In this document: positions 1-16,970 of the stretch, one piece after another | How positions within the stretch are numbered: position 1 is the stretch's first letter | How the letters are laid out: every line of letters starts with the position of its first letter | Assembly (NCBI GenBank): GCA_001820875.1 | Contig: MHRF01000013.1 | Location: 73,992-137,991 of the forward strand | DNA: 64,000 nucleotides | DNA from: Candidatus Taylorbacteria bacterium RIFCSPHIGHO2_01_FULL_46_22b | GTDB lineage: Bacteria; Patescibacteriota; Minisyncoccia; Phycocordibacterales; DSPV01 | Reading direction: 5' to 3' | Program-made: the position numbers and the translations under genes | The notes under the pieces: generated by a model | Databases searched by the model: none | What the model was told of the DNA's origin: nothing | Seen by the model: the letters and a program-made list of their open reading frames with translations, nothing else

Positions 1-1186
1 GCGCGACAATTGAGGCATGCGAGGTAATTCCTCCCTCGTCGGTGACAAATGCCGCCGCTTTCTGCATGCCAAGTATGTACGAAGGTGCGGTAGTCGGCGC
101 AATTAAAATATCCCCCTCCTGCACTTTATCAATATCGTGAGCAGTCATAACTACTTTTGCCCGCCCTTGAATTCTTCCTTTGAAGGCAATGGCTCCTTTA
201 AGTTCCTTGGTTGAATTTTTTATTTCTAAATCAGCAACAGGGCCGTGCAACAGAGCGCTGTATGCTCCAAAAGAAATTAAACTCACATTTCCATATTCAT
301 ATTTCTCGATTTTTCCCTCGAGAAGATCATGAATGCTGTAATCCCTTAAATCCTTAAAAGGTAAATTGAAATGAGTAGCGACTTCCTGAAGAATCGGACG
401 AGCCAAATACATCAGTTCATAGAGAACATCCGTACGCAAGGTTCTATAGTAAACAAGTTCCTGTGCCACTGCCGCCAAAGTTTTAAGTTCATCAGGAATA
501 TGAGGTCGTTTAAACTCTTCCTTTGGTTTTTCCGCCTGAAGACGCTTCCGCTCGTCCTGTAATTCATCAATAGAAAAAGGGTCTGAAAACCCATCTCGCA
601 CTTTTACCCACGCAAATGTGCGTTCTACTTCCTCAATTGGCACACTGCTCCGAAGAGCTTCTTCAAAATAATTATGAACATTTTTCTTTGTCGGATAACA
701 AATATCTCCCATTATCTTTTCAAGATCTCCCTGAAGATATTTGGGGATCTCTGCTCGAAGCTGTTTGATATACAGGTGTTCAAATCCATGCGCAAACCAA
801 ACATGTGCTTTCAGCAAAGTAAGCACTTCATATAATGCAGACAGCTTGGCGACTGGCGTATCTTTTGACTCAATTAATTTACTAATCTTTTCTATTCCTT
901 CTGTACGATACGCTTCGCACTTTCTTACAACCTCAAAAAAAGTATTACCTTGATCAAGATACCTTTGAAGTTCAACAACAAAAAGATCCCAGATTTCTTC
1001 AGAGCGATACCAGACTCCTTTTTGAAAAAGCATCGCTGGCCACTCTGCACCTACTCCAAACTTTTGCATTCCCTCTCGCCGCGAACCACCGCGAAATTGA
1101 GAGAGCATAAAAGCCCCAAACGGTCTGTCTGCCCAATGCTCCCACTTATATTCTAAAATTTTCTTTTTTATCTCCTCCGGCGTCAT
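1..1186 (-). CDS. PEP-utilizer phosphohistidine-domain paralog P0, 3'-truncated by the window edge. N-terminal helical region plus C-terminal swivel domain (..FVTDEGGITSHASIVA at the edge).
   Basis: Manual reverse translation from the ATG at 1186..1184 gives MTPEEIKKKILEYKWEHWADRPFGAF... and stays open to position 1. The last codons encode AAAFVTDEGGITSHASIVA, the PEP-utilizers His motif. The stop of the next gene (1188) follows 1 nt after this start. Confidence 0.75.
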   Translation of the reverse strand, partial: MTPEEIKKKILEYKWEHWADRPFGAFMLSQFRGGSRREGMQKFGVGAEWPAMLFQKGVWYRSEEIWDLFVVELQRYLDQGNTFFEVVRKCEAYRTEGIEKISKLIESKDTPVAKLSALYEVLTLLKAHVWFAHGFEHLYIKQLRAEIPKYLQGDLEKIMGDICYPTKKNVHNYFEEALRSSVPIEEVERTFAWVKVRDGFSDPFSIDELQDERKRLQAEKPKEEFKRPHIPDELKTLAAVAQELVYYRTLRTDVLYELMYLARPILQEVATHFNLPFKDLRDYSIHDLLEGKIEKYEYGNVSLISFGAYSALLHGPVADLEIKNSTKELKGAIAFKGRIQGRAKVVMTAHDIDKVQEGDILIAPTTAPSYILGMQKAAAFVTDEGGITSHASIVA

Positions 1187-1187
1187 G

Positions 1188-2687
1188 TTAGAGGATTGAG
1201 ACCAGTCCGTGATCTGCGTTTACTTCCACCGTCATGCCGTCTTTGAGCACTTTGGTTGCAATTTTGGTACCAATTACACAAGGCTTATTTAATTCGCGTG
1301 CAACAATTGCCGCATGCGAAGTCACCCCTCCCTCATCAGTTACAATCGCCGCCGCTTTTTTCATCGCAGGAACATAATCAGGTCGTGTCATAACCGCAAC
1401 CAAAATATCCCCTTCATTCACTTTATCAACTTCTTTCGCGCTCTTTATGATTTTCACCGTGCCCACCACCTTACCCATGCAAGCCGTCAAACCACGGAAA
1501 TCATTCACGTGTGATAAATCAGTGGTCTTGAGTATAGTTTCTTTCACCTGATCGGCTTCTTTACCGACAAGCACCTCATGCCCTTCTGTATCCCAAAAGA
1601 ATACGCAATTCTCTTTGCGTTTTTTAAAATCTTCACTAGAAGGAGTGATGTCAAAAATCTTTCCTACTTCGCGTGGACTCATGTATTTAATCAGCTCAAG
1701 TGATATGTTTGTACGTTTACCTATTTCAGATAGAATCAGCGACCCATAGTGCATGGTCCACAGCGTTGCTTTTTTACGATCATCCTGCCATTTGGTAAAG
1801 TCTTCCGAGACCTTGAGCAGGAACTCAAGCTCTTTATCCTGCTCCACCAGCGACCAATACTTCTTCTTCTCTTCAATATGTCGCGCGGGAGTTTCTTCAA
1901 TTTTCTTCAGTGTTACATTTAAATCCTCCGACAATGCAAGCAACTTTTCAAGTTCTGTATTGAAATGTTCGACTGAAAGCACATATGCATCAACATAATT
2001 ATTATGAATCCAGAAAAATTCCTGTTGATGTCTCTGGAGTAGTTTTGTTCTCTGTGCAGGATCTTTCCGAACCGCAAGCGCAATCTTAATGAGCGATACC
2101 TCTGCTTCGTTGATAAATGAAAGGTGGACTGGCGCAGTCAAAATCGAAAATAACTCATTGAGCCTCATGGTGTCTTTAAGAGGCGATGCGTCGTATAACT
2201 TTTTGATATGAGCCGCGACAATCTCGTCAGTCCCTAATGCAAACCCGTCTATGGTTGAACTTGAACTGTTTCGAGAAAGCACTGTCTCGACAAACTCATT
2301 GTGAAGTGTAATAAGTTCTTTGTCGGTAAGTTTTGCCAGATCAGTCTCTCCAATATGCTCGCACAGTGCATAAAAAGCTTTTTCATCTCCATCCCATTCT
2401 GCAATAAACTTTGTGCTATAAGAAATGTCGCCGCCACCATTTTTTATGACTGCTGTATATATTTTCTTGATATCTTCCATCTCCATATACCAATCTGCCT
2501 TGCCGTTTTCAAAAAAACAGTAGTGTACATCGAAATTCGTCCCTTTCTTCCTCTCAATATGAAAATCAATCTGTGCCTCGGCGATAAAATGGATAAAATA
2601 GGGCGACCCATCAAATCGCTGGTGATACCACTCTTTTCCCGTCCATTTGGACAACTCTTTTCGAGTCAACCCTTGTATATACTCCAT
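1188..2687 (-). CDS. Array paralog P1: helical N-domain (motifs FFWIHNNY, WQDDRKK) plus C-terminal PEP-utilizer mobile domain
   Basis: 499-aa ORF. The C-terminus reads GDILVAVMTRPDYVPAMKKAAAIVTDEGGVTSHAAIVARELNKPCVIGT, with the catalytic-His motif of PF00391-type swivel domains. Confidence 0.85.
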   Translation of the reverse strand: MEYIQGLTRKELSKWTGKEWYHQRFDGSPYFIHFIAEAQIDFHIERKKGTNFDVHYCFFENGKADWYMEMEDIKKIYTAVIKNGGGDISYSTKFIAEWDGDEKAFYALCEHIGETDLAKLTDKELITLHNEFVETVLSRNSSSSTIDGFALGTDEIVAAHIKKLYDASPLKDTMRLNELFSILTAPVHLSFINEAEVSLIKIALAVRKDPAQRTKLLQRHQQEFFWIHNNYVDAYVLSVEHFNTELEKLLALSEDLNVTLKKIEETPARHIEEKKKYWSLVEQDKELEFLLKVSEDFTKWQDDRKKATLWTMHYGSLILSEIGKRTNISLELIKYMSPREVGKIFDITPSSEDFKKRKENCVFFWDTEGHEVLVGKEADQVKETILKTTDLSHVNDFRGLTACMGKVVGTVKIIKSAKEVDKVNEGDILVAVMTRPDYVPAMKKAAAIVTDEGGVTSHAAIVARELNKPCVIGTKIATKVLKDGMTVEVNADHGLVSIL

Positions 2688-2695
2688 AAATAAAA

Positions 2696-4627
2696 TTATA
2701 GCATTTTCCTTACAACACCTCTCTCTGCATCAACCTCAATCCTATCGCCAGTTTTTAAAACTCGCGTGATATCCCGCACACCGATTATACAAGGCACATT
2801 GAGTTCTCTCGAAATAACCGCCGCATGACTGGTAACTCCACCTTGTTCTGTAACAATTGCTACTGCTTTCTTCATGATGGGCACAAACTCCGGAGTTGTT
2901 TGATTGGTTACCAAAATCTCTCCTTTCACAAAAGACTTCATGTCTTCAGCAGTACGTACAATATGAACGTGGCCTGTGGCGAATCCACGGCACGCGGGAA
3001 CCCCCTTCCATTCAACTTCTTTTTTATGTTCTCGTGCACCTGCTTCGAAAAAGCCCTGTGCTGTGGCACCCTCGGCAATAAAATATCCTTCAGGAGTTAC
3101 TGCGTAGAAAGTTCTTTCCTTTCTCTGTGCGATCAACTCGGCGACATCTCTTCCTTCAAGCAAGACTGCTTTTACTTCCTGAAAAATCAAGAAGGTAAGA
3201 TCTGATTTTGAATATGAAACCCGACGGGAGAGCTCTTCGAGAAAAAGATCGTAATAATGCATGCCTATATATGATCCCTTTTTGCGTTCATCTTTCCATT
3301 CTGCAAAAAGCCATGCGACTTTGATCAATTCTCGAGTAAAATTCGACAGGTTAATCTTTTCGAAGGTATCATCGCGCTTTTTCTTAGCTACCTTTCTACC
3401 TCTGTTTCTCTTCTCCATAATTTCTACAAACGAAGATTTTGACGCTCGTAGCTCTTCAGACTTTTTTTGCAGTTCAGAATAAAAGAAATCAATAGTCAGA
3501 ACTTCGGCAACAAAATAATTGTTGTGTATCCAGAAAAAAGACCGCGTATGAGCTTCTAATTTCTTATATAACCTCGGCTGCTCTGCCTGCATTGTCTCAA
3601 GCGACGGCAAGTCAGTTGGGTACACTTTCTCAATCGCAGTAGCAATTTCTATAAGTTTCCACTCTGCTTCTAATGTATATGAATCAATCAGGGGATTTGT
3701 CAGTGTGCGGACGATTTCTGGAACATCTTTGGATACAACGCCTTTAGCAACGAGTTCTTGGGAAATAACACTTTCAAGCCAATCAATCTCTCCAGTGGAC
3801 ATAAAAGTGTCCGCCATATATGCAACTGAACCGGCTAAAAGGTACCCGATGTGGAATTGTTCAAATAAATCACAGAGATCCTCATCTGAAAGCATCTTGA
3901 AATTTGTCTGGTCAATCTTTTCTCTGATTTCATCATAGGACTGCCAATCTTTCCGCCATCCAATTTGTATATTTAAAAAAGGAATGCTTCCTTCTTTCTT
4001 GATTTTATCGACAATCCAATCGCGAACTTGCTGTACACTGTCCCAATCTAGAAACCAATTCCCCTCATTTCCTTCTTGGAACCCGAAACAATATCCATAG
4101 TGAGGTGAAAACCGTTCTGAAAATGCATGGAGTTCACTTTCAGATGCAGCAAAAAGGGTAAAAAGCTTAGAATGGAAATTTTTATTAAAATCAGAACTCG
4201 TCTTCCGTACTAACTCAATCGGAAAATCAGAAAGTTTCTTTGCTAGAGGTTTAAATGTCTCCTGTTTTCCAATAACTTTTACTTCTATATTAGGAAAATG
4301 GGATTGCAAATCCTCTCGAAGTTCATGCTGATCATGCCCAATCGCAACAGCGTCAGGTTTGTGCTTCGCGAAAATTTCCCAACTTCCCTGCACTCGGTCA
4401 CCAATAACAACTTGATCGACAAGCTTAGCGGCGGCAAGTGCCGCCGCCCGCTCTTCCATGGTTAAATTCGGTATTCTCTTTTTGAGTGTCTTGACTGCTT
4501 CATCATGCGCAACAACTGCAATTAGATAATCTCCTAATTTCTTTGCTTCACGCAAAAAATAATGGTGCCCAATATGTAAACCATCAAATGTTCCAAACGC
4601 CATTACTTTTTTATTTTTCTTCGGCAC
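2696..4627 (-). CDS. Array paralog P2, three-domain fusion: N-terminal HxGH cytidylyltransferase-like nucleotidyltransferase, then the helical domain (FFWIHNNY, WKDERKK), then a C-terminal PEP-utilizer domain
   Basis: 643-aa ORF. The N-terminus has MAFGTFDGLHIGHHYF (HxGH motif of the cytidylyltransferase/FAD-synthetase-like fold). The C-terminus reads IVTEQGGVTSHAAVISRELNVPCIIG. The annotated start at 4627 is GTG; the first ATG is at 4603 (MAFGTFDG..), which is the more likely start. Confidence 0.8.
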   Translation of the reverse strand: MPKKNKKVMAFGTFDGLHIGHHYFLREAKKLGDYLIAVVAHDEAVKTLKKRIPNLTMEERAAALAAAKLVDQVVIGDRVQGSWEIFAKHKPDAVAIGHDQHELREDLQSHFPNIEVKVIGKQETFKPLAKKLSDFPIELVRKTSSDFNKNFHSKLFTLFAASESELHAFSERFSPHYGYCFGFQEGNEGNWFLDWDSVQQVRDWIVDKIKKEGSIPFLNIQIGWRKDWQSYDEIREKIDQTNFKMLSDEDLCDLFEQFHIGYLLAGSVAYMADTFMSTGEIDWLESVISQELVAKGVVSKDVPEIVRTLTNPLIDSYTLEAEWKLIEIATAIEKVYPTDLPSLETMQAEQPRLYKKLEAHTRSFFWIHNNYFVAEVLTIDFFYSELQKKSEELRASKSSFVEIMEKRNRGRKVAKKKRDDTFEKINLSNFTRELIKVAWLFAEWKDERKKGSYIGMHYYDLFLEELSRRVSYSKSDLTFLIFQEVKAVLLEGRDVAELIAQRKERTFYAVTPEGYFIAEGATAQGFFEAGAREHKKEVEWKGVPACRGFATGHVHIVRTAEDMKSFVKGEILVTNQTTPEFVPIMKKAVAIVTEQGGVTSHAAVISRELNVPCIIGVRDITRVLKTGDRIEVDAERGVVRKML

Positions 4628-6017
4628 GTTTCAAAATCGTTACCACTCCCTTCTCCGCGTCCACCTCCACCAAATCGCCGGTTTGTAGAATTTTTGTCGC
4701 AATTTGTGTCCCAATAACAGCGGGTACATTCAACTCTCGAGCCACAACCGCAGCATGACTGGTAATTCCTCCTTCATCAGTTACAATTGCCGCTGCTTTT
4801 GCACATAAATGGACAATCTGTGGACGTGTCATACCCGTTACCAAAATCTCTCCCTTCTGAAACGCACTTACTTGTTCATTGTAATCAGATGTGACAAAAC
4901 TGACGACACGAACACGGCCTATGACCTTTCCCTTATTTGCAACACTCCCTTTGAAGGTGCTGACAGCACTAAAATCTTCAGCTACCAGCTTTTTATATTT
5001 GTCTGCCTCTTCACCAGTAAGTAAAACAGCCCAACGATTATTTAAAATTGACACATATCCTGACTTACGGCGTCGAATTTCTTCCATATCAATTTTTTGT
5101 CCCGAGAAAAACGCAATCATTTCTTCTACAGTAGCAAACTCAAGATCAGGCTGTTTGCTTCGGAAAACTAATTCCTCAAGGATTTTCTTAAGATGATAGC
5201 GAAGATGCATGAAATGATACCTTGTCCAAAATCGCAAACAACCAAGTTCTCCAATAAGTCTCCCTAGATTCAAAATCTCCGGCGGAACTGGAATGTCAGG
5301 CGTCTTCACACCTTCTTTTACAAAAGAAAGAATCTTTTCTCTATAATGATCCGCATCAAATGGTTTCTCTCCTTCTATTTCATTAAACCATCCATATTGA
5401 GTCACAAATTTTTGGAGTAAAATATTCTGTGCATCAACAGAAAGAATCGACCAACGCTTGTATGCCTCTTCAATTTCTTTTTCTTCCTGTGCCCAAGGTA
5501 AATCTTCCGGCCAATAAGTTGAGGCGCGCAATAACTTGTCTTTTTCTTGGTACTTATCAAGAAGAGTTGTTATTTTCTCTTCAAGAGATTTGACGTGCTG
5601 CGGATTACTGATAAACATGCGGGCCAAGGTTTTTAGCATTTGATTGAAGAGTGTCTGCACATCCACAAGTAAAGCCAAGGTCTCTTTTTCTTTCCAAACT
5701 TGTTTCCATGCCCACTCTTCCATTTCCTTTGCTTCAGTAAACAGCGTCTTCCGTACATCGGTTAATAAACTTTTTATTCTTTCTGGATCCTCCCAGACTT
5801 TTCTGAAATACTCGCCAGCTTGATTCATTTCCTCAACGTCAAAATACGCCCGATTAGACATATCAGGAGAGACAAGATAAATCACATTCTTGTATTCAAA
5901 CCCTGCAAAATCAAAAAAAGTTTTAGCAAAAAATCCTATGTGGGCAGCGGTATAGTACGGTCGAACAGCACGAGTTTCAAACATTCGCTTATATATTCTT
6001 TTTGCGTTCTGTTCCAT
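4611..6017 (-). CDS. Array paralog P3 (helical domain + PEP-utilizer domain)
   Basis: 468-aa ORF. The C-terminus reads IVTDEGGITSHAAVVARELNVPAVIGT. Confidence 0.85.
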   Translation of the reverse strand: MEQNAKRIYKRMFETRAVRPYYTAAHIGFFAKTFFDFAGFEYKNVIYLVSPDMSNRAYFDVEEMNQAGEYFRKVWEDPERIKSLLTDVRKTLFTEAKEMEEWAWKQVWKEKETLALLVDVQTLFNQMLKTLARMFISNPQHVKSLEEKITTLLDKYQEKDKLLRASTYWPEDLPWAQEEKEIEEAYKRWSILSVDAQNILLQKFVTQYGWFNEIEGEKPFDADHYREKILSFVKEGVKTPDIPVPPEILNLGRLIGELGCLRFWTRYHFMHLRYHLKKILEELVFRSKQPDLEFATVEEMIAFFSGQKIDMEEIRRRKSGYVSILNNRWAVLLTGEEADKYKKLVAEDFSAVSTFKGSVANKGKVIGRVRVVSFVTSDYNEQVSAFQKGEILVTGMTRPQIVHLCAKAAAIVTDEGGITSHAAVVARELNVPAVIGTQIATKILQTGDLVEVDAEKGVVTILKRAEEK

Positions 6018-6113
6018 ACAGATGATACTACCTTATATTAAAACTGTTTGACAATAGATATTATATCGTGTTATAGTGTAAATCGATCACAAAAACCTCC
6101 TCCGCAGTAATGT

Positions 6114-6599
6114 GTGAGGAACAAACTGAAAGGAAGTACCTTGAGCACTCCCCACAAAATCCTCTGTCTCTGCCTCGGAAATTCCGACCGAAGCCCAGTC
6201 ATGGCCGCCGTTCTGCACATGTATCTCACCAGTGCAGGCTACACTGACGTCATTGTCGAGAGCGCCGGAGTCGGTGATTACGCGAAAACAGGTGGCAAAC
6301 CTGCCCCATTTGGTGTCGCCGCCGCGAAATTCCTTGGACTTCACATCGGTGGCCACACACGTCGTCACGTTGAAACACTGAAGCTCGACGATTACGATCT
6401 CTTTGTCTGCGCCGCAGATGACGTTGCCCGAGAACTCCTCAAGTTCTGCGGCGATCGGAGCAGGATGTTCAATGCCAACGTAGCAAACCCCTTCCCAGTC
6501 CAGTTCCAACAGGACTACGAACCGTGCATGATCGCCATCCTTGGCGGCATGTACCGTGTCGTCGCCCGCTACTTCCCTCCCCAATCCTTCGAGATGTAG
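6114..6599 (+). CDS. Low-molecular-weight phosphotyrosine phosphatase / ArsC-family (CX5R) phosphatase-like protein
   Basis: P-loop motif ILCLCLGNSDRSPVMAA (C-x5-R-S) near the N-terminus. The gene is GC-richer than the flanking array. A more likely start is the TTG at 6151, preceded by AGGAAG. The overlapping minus ORF 6087..6584 lacks any motif. Confidence 0.6.
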   Translation: MRNKLKGSTLSTPHKILCLCLGNSDRSPVMAAVLHMYLTSAGYTDVIVESAGVGDYAKTGGKPAPFGVAAAKFLGLHIGGHTRRHVETLKLDDYDLFVCAADDVARELLKFCGDRSRMFNANVANPFPVQFQQDYEPCMIAILGGMYRVVARYFPPQSFEM

Positions 6600-6616
6600 C
6601 CGCCTCTTTCTTCATC

Positions 6617-6652
6617 AGCCCAACCGCTTGCGGTTGGGCTGACTCTTTTATT
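6617..6652 (+). terminator. Rho-independent terminator after the CX5R phosphatase gene
   Basis: Hairpin AGCCCAACCGC-TTGC-GGTTGGGCT followed by a T-run (CTTTTATT). Confidence 0.5.
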
Positions 6653-6925
6653 GCCTAGCGAGTGAGCAACCTAAATTTCAAGGAGCAAAGCGACTATGAA
6701 ATTGGAAGCACTCTTGTGGTACGGAGAGAAAAAGTATCTTCGTTTTCTCTCCCGAACGAGCGACCTAGATTTCTTACGAGCATAGCGAATGTAGAAATCG
6801 GAAGTACTCTCGTGGTGCGACGGCAACAAAGGGTTTAATATCTCGCCCGTGGGGGGGTGAAAGCATTCGCGAAGCGAATGCTTTTTGTGTCTAGGATTTG
6901 ACCTAGGGTTAATACCCTTTATTTC
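6651..6925. repeat. Intergenic repeat element, copy A. It is two tandem ~70-nt subunits, then a terminal hairpin AAAGGGTTTAATA/CCCTTT that is split by a ~70-nt insert.
   Basis: TTGCCTAGCGAGTGAGCAACCTAAATTTC...GTGGTGCGACGGCAACAAAGGGTTTAATA is nearly identical to 57638..57836 and partially matches 55046..55200. Confidence 0.65.
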
Positions 6926-8025
6926 CTCTCCAAGATTTTCACCGTTCCTTTCTCGCCATCAACTTCAACAATATATCCATCTTTTAGTACATGAGTTGCG
7001 TACTTGAGTGCAACCACACAAGGAATCCCAAACTCACGCGAGACTACCGCAGCATGGGAAAGTAATCCTCCTTGATTAGCGAGAATCGCAGACGCTTTTT
7101 CACACGCAGGCATAAATTCGGGTGAAGTTGTTTCGGCAACCAAAATATCTCCTTTTTCCATTCTCTCAAATTCTTTTGCCAGCGAATCAAATGTCTTTGG
7201 ATCAGAAACAATAACCTTAACCCGTCCAATAACTTTTCCTTTGCTTGCAGGAATACCCTTTAGAATCTGAATTTCAGAGGGAATTTCTTCTCCCGCCTGT
7301 TTTAATAACGTAAGAATATCGTCTTTGACTTGCGCTCCGGCATGGACCGTAACTGTATTACCTTCCCCAATAATCACCCTCGCTTCTTTCCTATCTCTGG
7401 TCACTTGCGAATCAACCTTCACTCCATCAAAAAGTTTGTAGATATCATTGACCCCGTAGTATTTGAGGTCATGTATACTCACACCAAACTGCTTTTCAAG
7501 CTTGCGAGACATCTGGCGGAAATATGAGTCCTCGCCAAACCAAGGATAGTTAAAAATCTCCACTCTCGAACGCTCTTTGAGTTTGTAATTCCTCATCAGA
7601 TTTTCTTGCATCACCGGATTATTTACGGAGAGTTTATATGCCTTATCGGTATAGAAAAACTCGGTTCGGTAAAAGAACGATGTCGCCAAGCACCAATGTC
7701 CAAGAAATTTCTCAACATTTTGTTTGGTAAGTATTTCGGGTTTCTTTATCTCCGAATCAAATATTTCTAAGAGCTTGTTGAGATATTCAACATGGGCATT
7801 GAAATATTCGTTAAACCGTTTAGTGTCGGCAAAAAACTCTGCGCCATCATCAAGCTGTGCTTCAAGTACTTTTTTAGGAAGCCAGCAGTACCAACTGTCA
7901 TCAATAGCAGTTTCCAGTGCATAGAAACCTTTATAAAAGCCCATCCATGCATCACTCATCAAAAAATCAATCCCCTCAAAGTGGAACAATCGTTGATACT
8001 GTTTTGATTCGTCTATGAATTTCAT
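6919..8025 (-). CDS. Array paralog P4 (shorter helical domain + PEP-utilizer domain)
   Basis: 368-aa ORF. The C-terminus reads ILANQGGLLSHAAVVSREFGIPCVVAL. Confidence 0.8.
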   Translation of the reverse strand: MKFIDESKQYQRLFHFEGIDFLMSDAWMGFYKGFYALETAIDDSWYCWLPKKVLEAQLDDGAEFFADTKRFNEYFNAHVEYLNKLLEIFDSEIKKPEILTKQNVEKFLGHWCLATSFFYRTEFFYTDKAYKLSVNNPVMQENLMRNYKLKERSRVEIFNYPWFGEDSYFRQMSRKLEKQFGVSIHDLKYYGVNDIYKLFDGVKVDSQVTRDRKEARVIIGEGNTVTVHAGAQVKDDILTLLKQAGEEIPSEIQILKGIPASKGKVIGRVKVIVSDPKTFDSLAKEFERMEKGDILVAETTSPEFMPACEKASAILANQGGLLSHAAVVSREFGIPCVVALKYATHVLKDGYIVEVDGEKGTVKILERK

Positions 8026-9455
8026 CTCTGTAATATTCTCACAATTCCCCTCTCGGCGTCCACCTCAACTAGGTCACCGTCCTTCAAAATCTGTGTAGCA
8101 ATTTTACAACCCACTAAACAGGGGATTTTAAACTCACGGGAAATAATGGCGGCATGACACGCCATGCCTCCCTCGTCAGTAAGAATTGCTCCCACTTTAT
8201 TCACCAACATAGTCATATTTGGGTTAGTCATTCCAGTAACCAAAACATGTTTCTTGTTTATCTTGCCCGCAATTTTATGAATTTCACTTGGGGTATCTAC
8301 TTTTACTAAAACAACTGTTCCTTGAAACTTCCCTTTATGTGCAATTGTTCCCTTGAACTCCTGTAATTCTTGGGAGGGCTGACTTGAATCAAGTATCTGT
8401 ATCTTTTTCTGTTCCGCCTCAACACCACTGACAAAACTTACGCCGTCGGCTTTATAGTGAAGCAGATATGCCCTTTTTCTATTCTGCAATTCTTGTCCTG
8501 AAAGCCAAACACTCGACTGTAGTAACCGAATCACATCTTCAACTCTTGAGAACATAACAAACTCTCTATGGGTTACTCCTGCTTTATCGGCAAGGTGTGA
8601 GAAGAACAGCATTAAAAAATAATGGGCTCCACCCCAACACGCTTTTAGTGTTAAGCGACAGAGAGAAGACTGCTGGATAAAATAAGTAATGTCTTCTGCT
8701 TCCTTAGATTTCAACAGAGTTAATATCTCTTGTTGTTCCTTTTTAAGTAACACCTTCCCATGCTTATAGTTTTCTACTTCCTTCTTTGCTTTCTTGAGCT
8801 CTTCTGGTGTAAGTCTATATTTAATTATCTTTGCACCTTCTGCTTCAGATTCAACATTAAAAAGCATGAGCGGATATTTCAAGGCGTGTTCTTGTATGCT
8901 CTCGTCAGTTGGATTCTTTGACAATAAAAGGACATCACATTTCTCTTGATACAGAAGATCGTCTTCTTTTGGTGTGGTAAGTGTAATATATGGTTGCAAA
9001 TAATCATCTCTATATTTCTCTTTCACAATTTCTGCGAGTTGCTCTTCCACAGGAGCCATTACTTCTTCTCGGGAACACATAAAATATGCGAGTACTTTGC
9101 GTTCAACAACACGATATTCTTCAAAATATTTTAAGAGTTCGTCATTAGAAAGCGAGGGATTGAAACTTAATCGTATGTTTTTGATAACATTCCAATACTG
9201 GTGAGCAGCTTCCTTTGCATCAGAAATAGTTTTTGAAGCAAAGAGAGGATTAAGAAATTTCTTTCCATCTTCATATACCACACTCTCTACATCATCCACA
9301 GGAAAGTAACATTCGAGGTAACCCTTGAGACTCCACATAATTTGTTCAGAAAGAACGTTTCCCGTTATATCCCGATGGAAAATATACCGCTCCGTCTGAA
9401 TATCATTTTTCAGTAACGGTTGTTCTCCTGTCCATGCTAGTTGAAATTTCTTCAT
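8022..9455 (-). CDS. Array paralog P5
   Basis: 477-aa ORF. The C-terminus reads ILTDEGGMACHAAIISREFKIPCLVG. It overlaps P4 by 4 nt. Confidence 0.85.
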   Translation of the reverse strand: MKKFQLAWTGEQPLLKNDIQTERYIFHRDITGNVLSEQIMWSLKGYLECYFPVDDVESVVYEDGKKFLNPLFASKTISDAKEAAHQYWNVIKNIRLSFNPSLSNDELLKYFEEYRVVERKVLAYFMCSREEVMAPVEEQLAEIVKEKYRDDYLQPYITLTTPKEDDLLYQEKCDVLLLSKNPTDESIQEHALKYPLMLFNVESEAEGAKIIKYRLTPEELKKAKKEVENYKHGKVLLKKEQQEILTLLKSKEAEDITYFIQQSSLCRLTLKACWGGAHYFLMLFFSHLADKAGVTHREFVMFSRVEDVIRLLQSSVWLSGQELQNRKRAYLLHYKADGVSFVSGVEAEQKKIQILDSSQPSQELQEFKGTIAHKGKFQGTVVLVKVDTPSEIHKIAGKINKKHVLVTGMTNPNMTMLVNKVGAILTDEGGMACHAAIISREFKIPCLVGCKIATQILKDGDLVEVDAERGIVRILQR

Positions 9456-10942
9456 TTGAGTATCGTCACTACTCCCTTCTCCGCGTCCACTTCGACCATA
9501 TCGCCGGTTTTTAGTATTCTAGTGGCATTTTTGGTACCAACTATACAGGGCACTTTAAGTTCGCGGGAGATAATCGCCGCATGCGCGGTTACTCCGCCCT
9601 GATCGGTGACTACCGCCGCCGCTTTTTTCATAGCAACAACAAATTCCGGCGTAGTTTGATTTGCAACCAAAATTTCACCTTCCTTAAATTCCGCAATCTC
9701 TTTCGTATTGCGAAGCACTCGGACAATTCCTGTAACTTTTCCGCGAAATGCGGAAGATCCATGCAATTCAACCACTGCTCCTAATTTTGGAAACAAGTGA
9801 TCAACTTTTATTTTTGAATTAATTTCATCTGCGTATAGAGGGTAGGAATCAGCCTTTGCATACAAAATCAAAATCCCTTCTGTATATCTTCGCGATACTA
9901 AATTCCAATCAATAGGAATTCCTTTCAAAAAGGCAAAAAATTCTTCCGGAAGCGTGTAAAAAATAAGTTTAGAATCAAAATTGTTTCGTTGAGCAATTAA
10001 GGCAAGAGACTCATAAAATATCGTGTTGGTGCGCAATACGCATTCTTTTCTTCTATCTTGAATATGACTGAACAATTCGGCAATGCGAAGTACGTTTTTC
10101 AAACGCTCTGAAACCCCGAATGTCTTGCATAACACCTCTTTTGCTTTGCGATGGGCGTTAGGCATACCCTGTTTTGCATGAAGAATATCTTCAACATCTG
10201 GTGATGACTCTGCGAGTTTGGTTGCTTCAAGACGAATATCAGAGGCACTCACTCGTTTGTAATCAAGATAATTTGTTCGTACCCAAAAATAATTTCTTTC
10301 TGCGGAACGAACCAGTGAAGCAATACTCTCTTCAGTTTCATGTTTTTGTATAGCTAGAGCAATACGAAGGATCACCATCTCAAAATCACTCACAAATGAA
10401 CTAAACACCGAAGCCGTGAACGTGGTAATTACTTCATGTGTCGCCCTTTCTCCCAATTCCCCAATAATAATTTGCTGCAGCCAGTCATCAGTGCCTGTCG
10501 TAAGAAATGCATCAACTACATACCCGTATGATGCTTGTTCGACTTCAAGCTCATAGAGATGTTTCAACAAATACTGGAACTGTTCCGGAGAAAGCTCCTC
10601 CAAACACACATCACCGATAGTATTGAAATATTCAGTAAATGCCCGATATCGTTTCTCCCATTCAGAGAAAAATACAGGTGCAAACGAACGGTCAACAATT
10701 GCCGCATCAAGTAATAGATTCCGCTTGTCTTGCATCTCACTGGTTGACCAAAACCAATCCCAGCTATCTCGAGCAGTTTTATTTTGATAGACAAGCCCAA
10801 ACGATTGCGCGTACGGAAACCGCTTTGATCCAAGCGAAAGTCCCATTGCCTGAATATGAATACCGAAAAGATACCCCGCATAACTTTTAGGGAACCATTC
10901 AGTCGACGTATTTATCTGCGCAATAATTTCCTCTTTGGTCAT
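9452..10942 (-). CDS. Array paralog P6
   Basis: The ORF track extends this ORF to 11032, which would overlap P7 by 94 nt. The internal ATG at 10942 (MTKEEIIAQIN..., matching the M-T-K-E-E start pattern of other paralogs) instead gives an ATGA overlap with the P7 stop. The C-terminus reads VVTDQGGVTAHAAIISRELKVPCIVG. Confidence 0.8.
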   Translation of the reverse strand: MTKEEIIAQINTSTEWFPKSYAGYLFGIHIQAMGLSLGSKRFPYAQSFGLVYQNKTARDSWDWFWSTSEMQDKRNLLLDAAIVDRSFAPVFFSEWEKRYRAFTEYFNTIGDVCLEELSPEQFQYLLKHLYELEVEQASYGYVVDAFLTTGTDDWLQQIIIGELGERATHEVITTFTASVFSSFVSDFEMVILRIALAIQKHETEESIASLVRSAERNYFWVRTNYLDYKRVSASDIRLEATKLAESSPDVEDILHAKQGMPNAHRKAKEVLCKTFGVSERLKNVLRIAELFSHIQDRRKECVLRTNTIFYESLALIAQRNNFDSKLIFYTLPEEFFAFLKGIPIDWNLVSRRYTEGILILYAKADSYPLYADEINSKIKVDHLFPKLGAVVELHGSSAFRGKVTGIVRVLRNTKEIAEFKEGEILVANQTTPEFVVAMKKAAAVVTDQGGVTAHAAIISRELKVPCIVGTKNATRILKTGDMVEVDAEKGVVTILK

Positions 10943-12348
10943 AGTATCCGTACAACTCCATGATTTCCTTTCACTTCGACCAGATCGCCAGTTTTCAACA
11001 CTTTGGTCGCAACTTTCGTGCCGATCACACATGGTTTGCCCATTTCTCTCGCCACAATAGCGGCATGGCAGGTAATTCCACCTTCATCCGTAACAAATGC
11101 GGCCGCTTTTTTCATGGCGGGCAGATATTCGGGACGTGTCATCGATGCGACAAGAATTTCCCCTTCTTTAATCTCATTGAGTGATTCAAGTGTAGTGCAC
11201 ACTCTCACCCGCCCGCGCACTGTTCCTAAGGATGCAGCCGTGCCACGCAATTCATCCCCTTCGTGTGTATGTCCTTTAGTTAGAACTAAGACGGCTGATT
11301 CATATTCTTTACCCGTTAAAATCAAGATTTCTTCTGGAACCGCGACCACACACATACCCGCACGACGTTTTGACAATTCTGTCGCACGAGATGGGAGGGA
11401 CTCATTAAAATCAGGAGGTAATCCATACCTCAAATCATTCAGAGGAATCACTGTGCGACGGGACAATTCCTCAAGAAGTGTTTCGAGCCTTTCAACTGCA
11501 AGCAGAATATATTTTTTCCGTTCATCCTGCCAATCAGTCACAAAAGAAAGCACCTCGAACCGATCCACAAGTTCGGAGGGGAGAGAAAGTTTTTCTATCC
11601 AATATTTTTTATCTTTCTCGTTTTGTATCTTTCCACCTTTCATACGAAGTAGAGCATTCGCCTCACCCGCAATTTCGTCAACTGTCATCCGCCTGCGACC
11701 CGCATATGAATTACGCATCCATCCCCATTTTGTAATATATTTTGATATCGCCTCCATTCGCTCCTTCTTTGGAAATTTTCCTATCGCTCGTAATTCTTCT
11801 TCTGCTTCTTGCGCAAAAGATAGTGAATCAGGATTTGTCAACGAGACAAACACCTCGCTGAGTTCTTTCTCATCTTTAGTAAAAGGCTTAAGGGCAACCT
11901 TCAAACGTACATCGCTTGGAATTGCAAGCGCTTCGATGATATGTGCTGCACCAACCGAATCCGTCAGTGCGCGCATGGTTTTCTGGATAAACGTATATAG
12001 CTCGGTATCCGACAACGTGGACAAATCAGTACGGTCTATCTCTTCAAGATTTTTTGTATGCGGTTCTTGCGAAACAACATAATTTTTGCGTACCTCCTTG
12101 AAATAATTCTTGTCTTTCTCCCATTTACCGAATGCAAAATCGTGCAATCGTTCAAGATCGCTGACTCGATAATAGAGATCACCGCCTTCAGTTTTTGAAG
12201 TAAACAACCCTGCAGAATACCCCACCCCCAATTCTTTTTTCATCTCAAAACCCGAAAACCACGCGACCATTAGAAACACCGGCGTAAGATTGCCGCTTTG
12301 GATATACCAATCATCTTTCAACAAAATGTCTAGTTCTTCTTTACGCAT
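10939..12348 (-). CDS. Array paralog P7 (motif WQDERKK)
   Basis: 469-aa ORF. The C-terminus reads FVTDEGGITCHAAIVAREMGKPCVIG. Confidence 0.85.
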   Translation of the reverse strand: MRKEELDILLKDDWYIQSGNLTPVFLMVAWFSGFEMKKELGVGYSAGLFTSKTEGGDLYYRVSDLERLHDFAFGKWEKDKNYFKEVRKNYVVSQEPHTKNLEEIDRTDLSTLSDTELYTFIQKTMRALTDSVGAAHIIEALAIPSDVRLKVALKPFTKDEKELSEVFVSLTNPDSLSFAQEAEEELRAIGKFPKKERMEAISKYITKWGWMRNSYAGRRRMTVDEIAGEANALLRMKGGKIQNEKDKKYWIEKLSLPSELVDRFEVLSFVTDWQDERKKYILLAVERLETLLEELSRRTVIPLNDLRYGLPPDFNESLPSRATELSKRRAGMCVVAVPEEILILTGKEYESAVLVLTKGHTHEGDELRGTAASLGTVRGRVRVCTTLESLNEIKEGEILVASMTRPEYLPAMKKAAAFVTDEGGITCHAAIVAREMGKPCVIGTKVATKVLKTGDLVEVKGNHGVVRIL

Positions 12349-13831: not shown

Positions 13832-13861
13832 GTTGAAACAATGGCTTCATTGTTCCGTTTT

Positions 13862-13877
13862 TTGACGATTACGTCAA
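13862..13877. promoter_or_regulatory. Perfect palindrome TTGACGATTACGTCAA overlapping a -35-like hexamer upstream of P8; candidate operator
   Basis: 6-4-6 inverted repeat located 31-46 nt upstream of the P8 start codon, on the minus strand. Confidence 0.3.
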
Positions 13878-13879
13878 CC

Positions 13880-13953
13880 CCGTTAGAGATAGGTCGCGGT
13901 CAATTAGAGCCTGTAAATATGTGTTTTTCGAGCGGCCGCGATCTCTAACGGGA
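13880..13953. repeat. Long imperfect inverted repeat (CCGTTAGAGAT-aggt-CGCGG ... CCGCGATCTCTAACGG) enclosing ~35 nt
   Basis: The two ~16-20-nt arms are reverse-complementary. This is a structured element of unknown role in the divergent intergenic region. Confidence 0.35.
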
Positions 13954-13973
13954 TCAACAATACGGCCAAGATA

Positions 13974-14003
13974 TTGACTAATGGCAATATTTCGTGCTAT
14001 AAT
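13974..14003 (+). promoter_or_regulatory. Sigma70-like promoter (TTGACT-N18-TATAAT) for the histidine-phosphatase gene
   Basis: Consensus hexamers at 13974..13979 and 13998..14003. Confidence 0.45.
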
Positions 14004-14101
14004 ATAAGAAGTACGCAACTGAACCTTGAGAGCTAAATTGGGTCTTGCCGATCCGAGCTTTCTCTACCAAACAATATCTGAACCCCCAACCAACCTACTG
14101 A

Positions 14102-14776
14102 ATGAACTCAAAACTGAACCAAACCATTGTAGCAAGACTCCTCCGTGGAGGATTTGCACTTACTCGACACAACACCAAATTCACCTTCCTCCGACACGCG
14201 CATGCGGTCGCCGCAGATGGTGGTCATGACTCGGACCGACGTATCTCGAGCAAAGGACAGAAGCAGTGCGCTGCCATGAAATCCGTCTTTGAGACACGGT
14301 CGTTCAATGTGACTTATCGCTCCCCGCTCATACGTGTGTGGGATACGCTAGTCGCACTCAACATCCAGAGCCCCGAAGATACCACGATTAAAGAACTGGT
14401 CATCGAGTACGGACAAGAAACCCGTCAGTCGGGTGTGCTCGACGCCGCCTACGAAATCATGGGGAGCGTCGGACTCGCTGATATCATGAAGCACAAAGAA
14501 GTCGCCACAGCGATGGACGAGTTCGCCGCCCATGCACTGGCAAAACTCAATCTGCAAATCCAAGATGTGTCAGCGGACCGCGGCCAGAAATTCAACGTCC
14601 TTGTCGCCGGCCACGGGTGGCTCAATCCCATTCTCGCATATTACATGGCGGGAACAAATGAGACAGCTCGTCGCCATCTCCTCTACCACCCAATGGGCGA
14701 GTGTGAAATCATCGAGGTGGGAATCACAGAAGATGGGAGTCCTATCTGGAACCACATCCCCTGTCCCGCCGTTTAA
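14102..14776 (+). CDS. Histidine phosphatase superfamily protein (phosphoglycerate-mutase-like / SixA-like branch)
   Basis: N-terminal FTFLRHAHAV (RH catalytic dyad of the RHG motif) and a downstream VLVAGHGWL (second conserved His). The gene is GC-richer than the array and on the opposite strand. Confidence 0.6.
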   Translation: MNSKLNQTIVARLLRGGFALTRHNTKFTFLRHAHAVAADGGHDSDRRISSKGQKQCAAMKSVFETRSFNVTYRSPLIRVWDTLVALNIQSPEDTTIKELVIEYGQETRQSGVLDAAYEIMGSVGLADIMKHKEVATAMDEFAAHALAKLNLQIQDVSADRGQKFNVLVAGHGWLNPILAYYMAGTNETARRHLLYHPMGECEIIEVGITEDGSPIWNHIPCPAV

Positions 14777-14802
14777 CTCCGACCCGTTCAGTTCTCAAGA
14801 AG

Positions 14803-16960: not shown

Positions 16961-16970
16961 CGGATATTTC

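What the first reader, a model, noticed from the sequence alone, without database searches (positions are those of the whole stretch)
2696..4627. One array member is a three-domain fusion: HxGH cytidylyltransferase-like nucleotidyltransferase + helical domain + His swivel domain
The N-terminal ~140 aa (MAFGTFDGLHIGHHYF...) carry the HxGH motif of the cytidylyltransferase / FMN-adenylyltransferase / pantetheine-phosphate adenylyltransferase fold. This is fused in frame to the same helical + PEP-utilizer module as the other paralogs. A nucleotidyl-transfer domain attached to a phosphohistidine relay hints that this paralog couples phosphorylation with nucleotidylation, or acts on a nucleotide or cofactor substrate. 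It also gives a clue to the chemistry of the whole array.
Basis: partly seen in the sequence, partly recalled or inferred. Interest (0 to 1): 0.65.

Follow-up and report, generated by a model that had tools for sequence, protein, structure and literature searches.

The report
Nucleotidyltransferase fused to dikinase subunit
In a tiny-genome Candidatus Taylorbacteria bacterium, a small FAD-synthase-like enzyme is genuinely fused to one of at least 15 phosphate-carrying kinase subunits that share a single ATP-binding partner, which hints that this gene bank phosphorylates small molecules and that one product (possibly vitamin B2) is then nucleotidylated.

Summary
ORF 2696..4627(-) is one uninterrupted frame. 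It encodes an HxGH cytidylyltransferase-fold domain, an RPH-like helical domain and a phosphohistidine swivel domain. The AF2 model has pLDDT 93.5. The same fusion occurs in three allelic variants from independent assemblies of Candidatus Taylorbacteria (OHA17686.1), so it is not an artefact.

The array is a one-to-many version of the two-component small-molecule dikinases (PpsAB, CreHI, HpeHI; split rifampin phosphotransferase). One stand-alone ATP-grasp gene (23420..24370) serves at least 15 'H-type' paralogs.

The fusion itself is unique among 1.84 billion representative proteins, and close orthologs of the kinase part lack the NTase. However, the three closest stand-alone NTases (62-66% identity) all lie inside equivalent arrays in sister CPR genomes. 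The NTase is therefore a conserved array member that became fused here.

More distant relatives sit in housekeeping contexts, or are fused to or clustered with riboflavin kinase. This marks the family as RibL-type FMN adenylyltransferase.

The most likely mechanism is alcohol to phosphate ester (dikinase) to NDP-ester (NTase). Riboflavin to FMN to FAD is the leading candidate but is unproven. The H paralog next to the NTase differs between genomes, so an incidental fusion remains a serious rival.

The parts
2696..4627 (-). Fusion ORF. 643 aa from GTG 4627; gene callers use ATG 4603, giving 635 aa. Identical to OHA17686.1 from Candidatus Taylorbacteria.
4262..4627 (-). RibL-type HxGH nucleotidyltransferase domain. 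The HIGH motif is encoded at 4565..4576. No Cys residues and no C-terminal ISST/KSS motif.
   Evidence: Pfam and NCBIfam; Foldseek 3glv_A TM 0.83; all family-invariant residues retained; forms a clade with the array-embedded P0014, P0015 and P0016
3014..4261 (-). About 15-residue linker plus the RPH-like, mostly helical substrate-binding domain. Contains FFWIHNNY and the W-K-D-E-R-K-x-G motif, encoded at 3281..3298.
   Evidence: Foldseek to RPH-Lm. A profile alignment places WKDxRKxG on RPH Y665-R666-E667-x-P-K670-x-G672. The orthologs' N-termini align from 'KQETFKPL' onward.
2696..3013 (-). Phosphohistidine swivel domain (PEP-utilizers). Motif GGVTSHAAV, with the catalytic His encoded at 2825..2827 (His593 in the 635-aa frame, His601 in the 643-aa frame).
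23420..24370 (-). Stand-alone ATP-grasp (PPDK_N) component. It is the first gene of the operon and the presumed common phosphoryl donor for all H-type paralogs.
   Evidence: Pfam PPDK_N E 3.7e-98; NCBIfam PEP synthase N-terminus 5e-101 and RPH 3e-86
1..23415 (-). Array of at least 15 H-type paralogs (variable helical domain + swivel). Coordinates: <1..1185 (cut by the window edge), 1188-2687, 2696-4627, 4611-6017, 6919-8025, 8022-9455, 9452-10942, 10939-12348, 12341-13831, 15473-16960, 16971-18020, 18013-19536, 19533-20894, 20900-22357, 22354-23415.
   Evidence: all 14 complete paralogs keep GGxxxHAA; many 4- or 8-nt gene overlaps
15132..15476 (-). DUF5674 protein, a conserved accessory gene of these arrays.
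   Evidence: also present in L015-L019 and L011
14842..15135 (-). 97-aa protein with no Pfam match. Homologs follow DUF5674 in sister arrays.
14102..14776 (+). His_Phos_1 (histidine phosphatase superfamily) gene on the opposite strand inside the array. Its position is conserved in L015-L018.
6114..6599 (+). Low-molecular-weight phosphatase (LMWPc) gene on the opposite strand inside the array.

Best explanation
This is a genuine, lineage-specific gene fusion in Candidatus Taylorbacteria (Parcubacteria, CPR). Its two partners are:
(i) a short RibL-type HxGH nucleotidyltransferase, which in sister genomes is a separate gene embedded in the same kind of array;
(ii) one 'H-type' subunit of a two-component small-molecule dikinase, made of an RPH-like helical substrate-binding domain and a phosphohistidine swivel domain.

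Proposed mechanism, step by step:
1. The single stand-alone ATP-grasp protein (23420..24370) binds ATP.
2. The swivel His (His601 in the 643-aa frame) attacks the beta-phosphate. The gamma-phosphate is lost as Pi, giving His~P plus AMP.
3. The swivel domain returns to its own helical domain and phosphorylates a hydroxyl of a bound small molecule: R-OH becomes R-O-P.
4. The fused NTase condenses that phosphate monoester with an NTP: R-O-P + NTP gives NDP-R + PPi.

The leading candidate for R is riboflavin (riboflavin to FMN to FAD). That would make the protein a non-orthologous analogue of bifunctional RibF.

Shown here: the domain architecture, the fold, retention of the catalytic motifs, the reality of the fusion, the conserved linkage of the NTase to the array, and the RibL-type family assignment.

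Inferred: that the ATP-grasp protein serves this subunit, that the two domains act on the same molecule, and the identity of R.
For: Architecture and fold.

Split-RPH logic: one PPDK_N gene heads the operon of H-type genes. HpeHI, PpsAB and CreHI are described as two-component RPH homologues that use a His~P swivel mechanism (PMC12167813). The H-domain motif WKDxRKxG aligns with RPH R666/K670. All paralogs keep the catalytic His.

Linkage of the NTase to the array:
- P0016 (66% identity) lies inside an array and overlaps the next H gene by 4 nt, in four contigs.
- P0014 (65%) is the last gene of an array that begins with PPDK_N.
- P0015 (62%) lies between two H genes.
- These three plus the window form one clade in an NJ tree.
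- More distant relatives (P0017, P0035, P0048 and 16 metagenomic loci) have no swivel gene nearby.

FMNAT assignment of the wider family:
- P0175, a Parcubacteria protein, has this NTase fused N-terminally to a Pfam Flavokinase domain, in the same N-to-C order.
- L036 carries a flavokinase - EamA transporter - NTase operon.
- P0205 is an NTase-EamA fusion and P0256 a TruB-NTase fusion.
- JGI and NCBI name several relatives 'FAD synthase/synthetase'.
- All family-invariant residues are retained in the fusion, including HxGH and the G(H/Y)DQ segment (G97, D99 and Q100 invariant).
- An RibL-type enzyme with a degenerate ISST motif is an active FAD synthase (PMC11423594).

Need for flavins: the window encodes an FMN-dependent DHODH and an FAD-dependent HI0933-like oxidoreductase. 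Parcubacteria were reported to lack ribK/ribL/ribF while keeping the flavoenzymes murB and trxB (PMC4508563).

Established knowledge: kinase-NTase fusions such as RibF and HldE are a recurrent way to make NDP-linked or dinucleotide products. HldE domain II is among the best NCBIfam hits.
Against: - The fusion is a singleton. No other NTase + H protein appears among the best 150 hits (the only hits listed, of 4,890 with E <= 0.001) from 1.84 billion representatives.
- The four closest orthologs of the H part (54-61% identity) lack the NTase and are preceded by another H paralog. A 42% ortholog stands alone, with neither an NTase nor an ATP-grasp gene within 10 kb.
- The H gene next to the stand-alone NTase differs in L015, L019 and L024. 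No specific NTase-H pairing is conserved.
- The NTase lacks the C-terminal phosphate-binding ISST-like motif.
- No FMN riboswitch is present.
- No evidence bears on what the helical domain binds.
- The absence of a canonical flavokinase from this genome could not be checked. Only 64 kb is visible and the last homology search was uninformative.
- The relative orientation of the active sites could not be examined.
Confidence: 0.5

Rival explanations
1. The fusion is incidental. The NTase is simply the cell's FMN adenylyltransferase, or another housekeeping NTase, whose gene happens to lie in this tightly packed operon. Loss of its stop codon joined it to whichever H paralog lay downstream. The two domains would then act on unrelated substrates and gain nothing from being fused.
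For: - Genes in the array overlap by 4-8 nt, so a stop-codon loss readily creates a fusion.
- The downstream H paralog differs between genomes.
- Orthologs of the fused H part function without an NTase.
- Relatives of the NTase are found fused to many unrelated domains: GT2, VTT, PAP2, VIT1, RNase_T.
- The fusion is unique.
Against: - The clade of closest NTases is found only inside such arrays, in 4 of 4 cases with context. More distant relatives are never found there, in 0 of about 20. This argues for a functional link at least to the array.
- The fusion is maintained intact in three allelic variants.
- The chemistry of the two enzyme classes is naturally sequential.
Confidence: 0.3
2. Xenobiotic or antibiotic inactivation bank. 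The paralogs are RPH-like resistance kinases against diverse host or competitor compounds, and the NTase adds a second modification (nucleotidylation) to a phosphorylated toxin.
For: - RPH is the only solved structure that matches the helical domain.
- The substrate-binding domains are extremely diversified (21-28% identity), as expected for a detoxification or defence repertoire.
- CPR genomes are reported to be rich in resistance-like genes, including rph (PMC8651080).
Against: - The NTase belongs to the RibL/HldE/TagD biosynthetic superfamily. Known resistance nucleotidyltransferases have a different fold (established knowledge).
- Its relatives associate with flavokinase.
- There are no PADLOC hits.
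- The ATP-grasp and swivel domains are closer to PEP synthase than to RPH.
Confidence: 0.1
3. The NTase domain is catalytically dead or regulatory. Having lost the ISST-type motif, it would only bind a nucleotide or flavin and modulate the dikinase subunit.
For: The C-terminal phosphate-binding motif is absent, and the domain is only about 114 aa.
Against: - HxGH and all 17 family-invariant positions are retained.
- Stand-alone members of the same clade, and a homolog in a housekeeping context (P0035), also lack the motif.
- EhFADS is active despite a degenerate motif (PMC11423594).
Confidence: 0.08
4. Assembly or frameshift artefact that joins two separate genes.
For: Sister genomes have separate genes.
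Against: - The identical 635-aa protein occurs on 8 contigs from several sources.
- Two single-substitution variants and a partial sequence also exist.
- An independent contig is 99.99% identical across the junction.
- GC content is uniform across the ORF: 0.43 in the NTase part versus 0.41 in the rest.
Confidence: 0.02

Closest known systems
Two-component small-molecule dikinases: HpeHI (Rhodococcus), PpsAB phenylphosphate synthase (Thauera), CreHI (Corynebacterium)
   Same: The architecture is split in the same way. There is a separate ATP-grasp protein, plus a protein carrying an RPH-like helical substrate-binding domain and a C-terminal swivel domain with the catalytic His (PMC12167813). 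The expected reaction is the same: ATP + R-OH gives R-O-P + AMP + Pi.
   Different: - Here one ATP-grasp gene serves at least 15 H-type paralogs instead of a 1:1 pair.
- The host is a reduced CPR genome with no aromatic-catabolic genes.
- The residue at His-2 is Thr in this protein, as in PEP synthase, not Met.
- One subunit carries an N-terminal nucleotidyltransferase, which is not reported for any characterised member.
Rifampin phosphotransferase (RPH; PDB 5fbs, 5fbt, 5fbu, 5hv1)
   Same: It is the only solved structure covering both the helical and swivel domains (Foldseek E 1e-15). The profile alignment spans RPH residues 653-866, including the R666/K670 region.
   Different: RPH is a single chain with its own ATP-grasp domain. 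Identity is only about 16%, and no NCBIfam RPH cutoff is reached (83 versus 999 bits). RPH has no NTase domain.
Archaeal RibL FAD synthase and Entamoeba EhFADS (RibL-type FMN adenylyltransferases)
   Same: The fold is the same small HxGH Rossmann type, and the G(H/Y)DQ segment is family-conserved (G97, D99 and Q100 invariant; its presence in M. jannaschii RibL is recalled from memory and was not tested). Relatives are annotated as FAD synthase and are fused or clustered with flavokinase. Like EhFADS, the domain lacks the two RibL cysteines and has a degenerate ISST motif.
   Different: The activity is untested. The domain belongs to a distinct short clade found only in dikinase arrays, and here it is fused to a dikinase subunit.
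Bifunctional kinase-nucleotidyltransferase enzymes: RibF (FMNAT + flavokinase), the Parcubacteria RibL-flavokinase fusion P0175 (TSC60688.1), and HldE (heptose kinase + adenylyltransferase)
   Same: The domain logic is the same: an HxGH NTase joined to the kinase that makes its phosphate-ester substrate. The N-to-C order matches RibF and P0175.
   Different: The kinase partner here is neither a flavokinase nor a PfkB kinase. It is a phosphohistidine-relay dikinase subunit that needs a separate ATP-grasp protein.
PEP synthase (PpsA)
   Same: The ATP-grasp protein and the swivel domain score best against PEP synthase models (339 and 126 bits). The full GGxTSHAA motif is present.
   Different: The PEP/pyruvate-binding TIM-barrel domain is absent. 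Scores are far below the equivalog cutoffs (598-740 bits). The helical domain is RPH-like.

Membership tests
Cytidylyltransferase-like (HxGH) nucleotidyltransferase superfamily | Rossmann-like alpha/beta fold of about 110-150 aa | tested here: met
   AF2 pLDDT is above 90 over residues 1-110. Foldseek matches: 3glv_A TM 0.83, rmsd 1.7 A; TagD 2b7l TM 0.80; HldC; Fom1 CyTase.
Cytidylyltransferase-like (HxGH) nucleotidyltransferase superfamily | N-terminal (H/T)xGH motif | tested here: met
   FDGLHIGHH, with HIGH at residues 18-21 of the 643-aa frame. Pfam PF01467 scores 60 bits against a cutoff of 21.
Cytidylyltransferase-like (HxGH) nucleotidyltransferase superfamily | C-terminal ISSTxxR / RTxGISTT-type phosphate-binding motif | tested here: not met
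   The domain ends after the last beta-strand (…EVKVIGKQ). There is no (Y/F)(H/K)SS motif, unlike P0017, P0048 and P0175. The motif is also missing from P0014-16, P0035 and the active EhFADS.
RibL-type FAD synthase (FMN adenylyltransferase) | Closest sequence family is RibL-type, with flavin-related genomic associations | tested here: met
   Homologs are named FAD synthase/synthetase by JGI and NCBI. Associations: RFK fusion P0175, RFK-EamA-NTase operon in L036, and EamA and TruB fusions.
RibL-type FAD synthase (FMN adenylyltransferase) | Two conserved cysteines of archaeal RibL (air sensitivity) | tested here: not met
   The NTase domain contains no Cys. EhFADS also lacks them.
RibL-type FAD synthase (FMN adenylyltransferase) | FMN + ATP -> FAD + PPi activity | not testable with these tools
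   Requires an enzyme assay.
Two-component small-molecule dikinase (PpsAB/CreHI/HpeHI type) | H component made of an RPH-like substrate-binding domain and a C-terminal swivel domain with a catalytic His | tested here: met
Two-component small-molecule dikinase (PpsAB/CreHI/HpeHI type) | Separate ATP-grasp (PPDK_N) component encoded with it | tested here: met
   23420..24370(-), PPDK_N E 3.7e-98, same strand and same gene string.
Two-component small-molecule dikinase (PpsAB/CreHI/HpeHI type) | One H component per I component, and a phenolic substrate in an aromatic-catabolism context | tested here: not met
   There are at least 15 H genes for one ATP-grasp gene. No aromatic-catabolic genes were found in the window.
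Two-component small-molecule dikinase (PpsAB/CreHI/HpeHI type) | ATP-dependent dikinase activity (AMP + Pi products) that requires the His | not testable with these tools
   Requires biochemistry.
Rifampin phosphotransferase (RPH) | Single chain of ATP-grasp + RIF-binding + swivel domains, reaching the NCBIfam equivalog score | tested here: not met
   There is no ATP-grasp domain in this ORF. NF041857 scores 83 bits against a cutoff of 999.
PEP synthase / PPDK | C-terminal PEP/pyruvate-binding TIM-barrel domain | tested here: not met
   Only the mobile domain matches. The protein ends 6 residues after the swivel domain.
Bifunctional RibF | FAD_syn-type FMNAT plus a Flavokinase (PF01687) domain | tested here: not met
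   FAD_syn is only a weak partial hit, and the protein has no Flavokinase domain. A tblastn search of the window with a flavokinase domain also found none elsewhere in the window.

The most novel reading that the evidence does not exclude
The array may be a bank of substrate-specific 'phospho-trapping' dikinases. It would let a transporter-poor, biosynthesis-poor CPR cell capture diffusible nutrients and cofactor precursors, all powered by one shared ATP-grasp subunit.

On this reading, the NTase-H fusion is a non-orthologous replacement of RibF: a riboflavin dikinase plus an RibL-type FMN adenylyltransferase. It would supply the FMN/FAD pathway reported missing from Parcubacteria since 2015.
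Probability: 0.2. Interest if true: 0.85.

Novelty: new variant of a known kind. Interest (0 to 1): 0.62.

Why it matters
Two-component RPH-like dikinases were recognised as a subfamily only in 2025, and so far only for phenolic catabolism. Here a roughly 1-Mb-class CPR genome devotes at least 24 kb to one ATP-grasp subunit and at least 15 highly diverged substrate-binding/His-carrier subunits. That is a one-to-many wiring not described in any paper I could find.

The nucleotidyltransferase is the only component with an informative enzymology. It is conserved in such arrays and fused to a subunit here. Its superfamily acts on phosphate monoesters, and its wider family is tied to flavokinase. 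This turns an array with no known substrate into a testable hypothesis: phosphorylate, then nucleotidylate.

It also offers a concrete candidate for how Parcubacteria make FMN and FAD despite lacking recognisable ribK/ribF. If the riboflavin idea fails, the fusion protein is still the natural entry point for finding the array's substrates.

Tried and rejected
- **Other fusions.** A HMMER search of residues 1-535 against 1.84 billion representatives found no protein combining both parts.
- **Split form next to the H orthologs.** I looked for an NTase gene beside the closest H orthologs. The upstream genes in L008-L011 are all other H paralogs. The lone ortholog P0006 has neither an NTase nor an ATP-grasp gene within 10 kb.
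- **Metagenome scan with the NTase domain.** It returned only more distant relatives (35-56% identity), none near a swivel gene. This served as a negative control but found no new array-type members.
- **Active-site orientation.** The question of whether the NTase site faces the swivel domain could not be addressed, because model coordinates and PAE are not exposed.
- **Flavokinase in Taylorbacteria.** Only 5 hits were found and none was informative. The window has no flavokinase and no second NTase.
- **FMN riboswitch.** An Rfam scan of the window and four related loci found only tRNAs.
- **Defence system.** There were no PADLOC hits for 8 array proteins.
- **Vestigial ribosome-binding site.** A CAGGAG sequence in the junction looked like a leftover RBS. 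I rejected this because the other array genes show no Shine-Dalgarno motif upstream.
- **Literature.** Searches for CPR/Parcubacteria PEP-utilizer arrays, for DUF5674, and for CPR riboflavin kinase found nothing.
Full report
**1. Observation**

ORF 2696..4627 on the minus strand is a single open frame. It is 643 aa from GTG 4627, or 635 aa from ATG 4603, the start chosen by public gene callers.

Pfam finds three domains:
- CTP_transf_like at residues 10-119 (E 2.8e-16);
- a weak FAD_syn hit;
- the PEP-utilizers mobile domain at residues 568-637 (E 1.2e-26).

NCBIfam adds TIGR00125 cyt_tran_rel and, more weakly, HldE domain II and TagD.

An AlphaFold2 model was built on a 78-row alignment of NTase homologs, H-domain orthologs and the window's own paralogs. 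It is confident throughout, with mean pLDDT 93.5 and pTM 0.84. Only the roughly 15-residue linker dips, to about 74.

By Foldseek against the PDB, the N-terminal domain superposes on the RibL-like protein 3glv_A (TM 0.83, rmsd 1.7 A), and on HldC, TagD and the Fom1 cytidylyltransferase. The remainder matches rifampin phosphotransferase RPH-Lm (5fbu, 5fbs, 5hv1; E about 1e-15).

The NTase domain is about 114-122 aa rather than 140.

**2. Not an artefact**

- The window's protein is identical to OHA17686.1 / UniRef100_A0A1G2M1B9 from Candidatus Taylorbacteria. It is recorded on 8 contigs from several sources.
- Two further 635-aa variants differ by one residue each, and a partial read-based copy also starts with the NTase.
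- An independent ENA contig (L001) is 99.99% identical across the junction.
- GC content is uniform across the ORF.
- The GTG start is supported by homology: MPKKNKKVMAFG... here versus MAKHTKKVLAFG... in P0014.

**3. What the array is**

The fusion lies in a co-directional string of at least 15 genes (<1..23415). Each encodes a divergent, mostly helical domain followed by a conserved swivel domain that retains the GGxxxHAA catalytic-His motif. The paralogs are 21-28% identical to the fusion.

The first gene of the string (23420..24370) encodes only the ATP-grasp nucleotide-binding domain, PPDK_N (E 3.7e-98).

This is the split architecture of the two-component small-molecule dikinases HpeHI, PpsAB and CreHI. 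In 2025 these were shown to be two-component homologues of RPH. In them the swivel His is pyrophosphorylated from ATP on the ATP-grasp protein, loses the gamma-phosphate, and transfers the beta-phosphate to a hydroxyl group bound in the helical domain (PMC12167813).

A profile of the fusion's orthologs aligns to RPH-Lm residues 653-866. It places the family motif W-K-D-x-R-K-x-G on RPH Y665-R666-E667-x-P-K670-x-G672. From memory of the RPH literature, R666 and K670 are required for phosphotransfer.

Differences from the characterised systems:
- The ratio of ATP-grasp to H genes is one to many (1 to at least 15).
- The host is a CPR bacterium with no aromatic-catabolic context.
- The ATP-grasp and swivel domains are closer to PEP synthase than to RPH.
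- In the fusion and five other paralogs the residue at His-2 is Thr rather than Met.

**4. How the fusion arose, and what is conserved**

The fusion is unique. A HMMER scan of residues 1-535 (NTase + helical domain) against 1.84 billion representatives found H-domain relatives covering only residues about 124-533 and NTases covering only residues 1-130. No protein had both.

The closest orthologs of the H part (P0002-P0005, 54-61% identity) begin exactly where the linker begins ('...KPL..KL.DFP'). In each case they are preceded by another H paralog, not by an NTase.

The NTase, however, is not a random passenger. Its three closest relatives are stand-alone genes embedded in equivalent arrays in sister CPR genomes:
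- P0016 (66% identity) lies between H genes and overlaps the next one by 4 nt, in four contigs (L015-L018; L012 is the same locus in Candidatus Paceibacterota SMAG_U8138).
- P0014 (65%) is the last gene of an array that starts with PPDK_N (L019).
- P0015 (62%) lies between two H genes (L024).

In an NJ tree these three and the window domain form one clade.

By contrast, more distant relatives lie in housekeeping neighbourhoods. P0017 and P0035 sit in greA-aspS-NTase-serS, and P0048 sits next to dnaE. None of these loci, nor any of 16 further metagenomic loci, has a swivel gene nearby.

The H gene adjacent to the NTase is a different paralog in each genome. What is conserved is therefore 'NTase within the array', usually near its distal end, rather than a specific NTase-H pair. 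In Taylorbacteria the NTase reading frame has become continuous with the N-terminus of the downstream H gene.

**5. What the NTase does**

The wider family is RibL-type:
- Many homologs from CPR and DPANN genomes are named FAD synthase or FAD synthetase by JGI and NCBI.
- A Parcubacteria member (P0175, TSC60688.1) has this NTase fused N-terminally to a Pfam Flavokinase domain. This is the domain order of RibF.
- Locus L036 carries a flavokinase - EamA transporter - NTase operon.
- P0205 is an NTase-EamA fusion and P0256 a TruB-NTase fusion. From memory, riboflavin transporters RibN and ImpX belong to the EamA/DMT family, and truB-ribF is a classical gene neighbourhood.

The fusion's NTase keeps all 17 positions that are invariant across 18 family members, including HxGH and the G(H/Y)DQ segment, in which G97, D99 and Q100 are invariant.

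It lacks the C-terminal (Y/F)(H/K)SS motif and the two RibL cysteines. So do its stand-alone clade members, the housekeeping-context P0035, and the experimentally active Entamoeba RibL-type FAD synthase.

I therefore consider the domain a probable active nucleotidyltransferase. FMN adenylyltransferase is the most likely activity, though a changed substrate in the array-specific clade is not excluded.

**6. Mechanism proposed**

Every characterised member of the HxGH superfamily (RibL/RibF-N, TagD, CCT/ECT, HldE-II, PPAT, NMNAT) condenses a phosphate monoester with an NTP. RPH-type dikinases make phosphate monoesters from alcohols. Kinase-NTase fusions such as RibF and HldE are a recurrent solution.

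The simplest reading is sequential: R-OH to R-O-P on the H domain, using His601~P charged by the shared ATP-grasp protein, and then R-O-P + NTP to NDP-R + PPi on the fused NTase.

Riboflavin is the leading candidate for R, for three reasons:
- the family associations listed in section 5;
- the window encodes an FMN enzyme (DHODH, 31257..32372) and an FAD enzyme (HI0933-like, 44878..46218);
- Parcubacteria were reported to lack ribK/ribL/ribF and riboflavin transporters while keeping the flavoenzymes MurB and TrxB (PMC4508563).

My probability estimates:
- about 0.75 that this is a real, functional NTase fused to an H-type dikinase subunit of a shared-ATP-grasp system;
- about 0.45 that the two domains act sequentially on one molecule;
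- about 0.2-0.3 that the molecule is riboflavin.

**7. Rivals**

- Incidental fusion: a stop-codon loss in a tightly overlapping operon. This is the main rival, because the adjacent H paralog is not conserved and the H orthologs work without an NTase.
- A xenobiotic-inactivation bank, a dead or regulatory NTase, and an assembly artefact are progressively less likely, for the reasons given in the rival entries.
- No known defence-system model matches.
- No riboswitch is present.

**8. Novelty**

The protein exists in public databases only as an uncharacterised 'PEP-utilising enzyme mobile domain-containing protein'. I found no paper describing CPR arrays of H-type subunits with a single ATP-grasp partner, DUF5674, or an NTase-dikinase fusion.

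It is best classed as a new variant of a known kind, the two-component RPH-like dikinases. It has two unusual features: one-to-many wiring and a conserved, here fused, RibL-type nucleotidyltransferase.

**9. Limits**

- Only 64 kb of the genome is visible, so the absence of a canonical flavokinase or of a second NTase could not be tested.
- The geometry between the active sites could not be inspected.
- Substrate identity is entirely inferential.

Noticed in passing
window 1..1185 (-): A 15th H-type paralog (MTPEEIKKKILEY...GGITSHASIVA) runs off the start of the window, so the array is longer than the window shows. Its ortholog follows the stand-alone NTase in L024 and is followed there by an AdoHcy hydrolase gene.
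   Followed up: partly
window 14102..14776 (+) and 6114..6599 (+); L015-L018 2635..3312 (-): Two phosphatase genes (His_Phos_1 and LMWPc) sit on the opposite strand inside the array. The His_Phos_1 gene holds the same position in sister arrays. They might reset phospho-His or phospho-Thr on the swivel domains, or hydrolyse products. Public gene calling on L001 instead annotates a 165-aa ORF with no Pfam match on the other strand, which overlaps the LMWPc gene.
   Followed up: partly
window 15132..15476 (-) and 14842..15135 (-); L019 7327..7999; L015 1762..2578; L009 1725..2024; L011 2149..2343: DUF5674 and a protein of about 97-108 aa with no Pfam match (motif LGSEVSRLL...YF.PFA.R) are conserved accessory genes of these arrays. 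No literature on DUF5674 was found.
   Followed up: partly
L036 4216..6097: An operon of flavokinase (127 aa), EamA-family transporter (318 aa) and RibL-type NTase (137 aa, with the YKSS motif). It is a compact candidate for a riboflavin uptake-to-FAD module. It also suggests that the EamA protein, and the NTase-EamA fusion P0205, is a riboflavin transporter.
   Followed up: partly
L020 4925..7685; L023 5235..9613: Housekeeping RibL-type NTases of CPR genomes lie in a conserved greA - aspS/asnS - NTase - serS neighbourhood. This contrasts with the 2015 report that Parcubacteria lack ribL.
   Followed up: no
P0161 (983 aa): A protein with two PEP-utilizers domains, apparently a tandem fusion of two H-type subunits. 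Several other H-type relatives (P0124, P0164, P0196, P0219) carry N-terminal extensions of 80-115 aa with no Pfam match.
   Followed up: no
L013 (Candidatus Nanoarchaeia) and L014 (Methanosarcinales), match at 10001 onward: H-type relatives (29-37% identity) also occur in archaeal MAGs, with no ATP-grasp gene detected within 10 kb by tblastn.
   Followed up: no
L002-L007, gene at about 10001..11575 / 6011..7585: The 42%-identical ortholog P0006 of the fused H domain stands alone next to glnS/gltX in Rifle-aquifer CPR contigs. There is no array, ATP-grasp or NTase within 10 kb, so its phosphoryl donor must be encoded elsewhere.
   Followed up: partly
window 9452..11032 (-): The longest ORF for this paralog overlaps the upstream gene by 94 nt. 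The ATG at 10942 (MTKEEII...) gives the 4-nt overlap typical of the array and is the likelier start.
   Followed up: no
window 24578..25401 (+), 59922..59995 (-): tRNA-Pro(CGG), tRNA-Ala(CGC) and tRNA-Ala(UGC) lie immediately upstream of the array's first gene, and tRNA-Gln(UUG) lies further on. Nearly all protein genes in the window are on the minus strand, with negative GC skew throughout.
   Followed up: no
window 31257..32372 (-), 44878..46218 (-), 42615..43727 (-): The window also encodes flavoproteins and a haem protein: DHODH (FMN), an HI0933-like FAD oxidoreductase, and a protein with a C-terminal cytochrome b5-like domain. The organism clearly needs flavin cofactors.
   Followed up: partly
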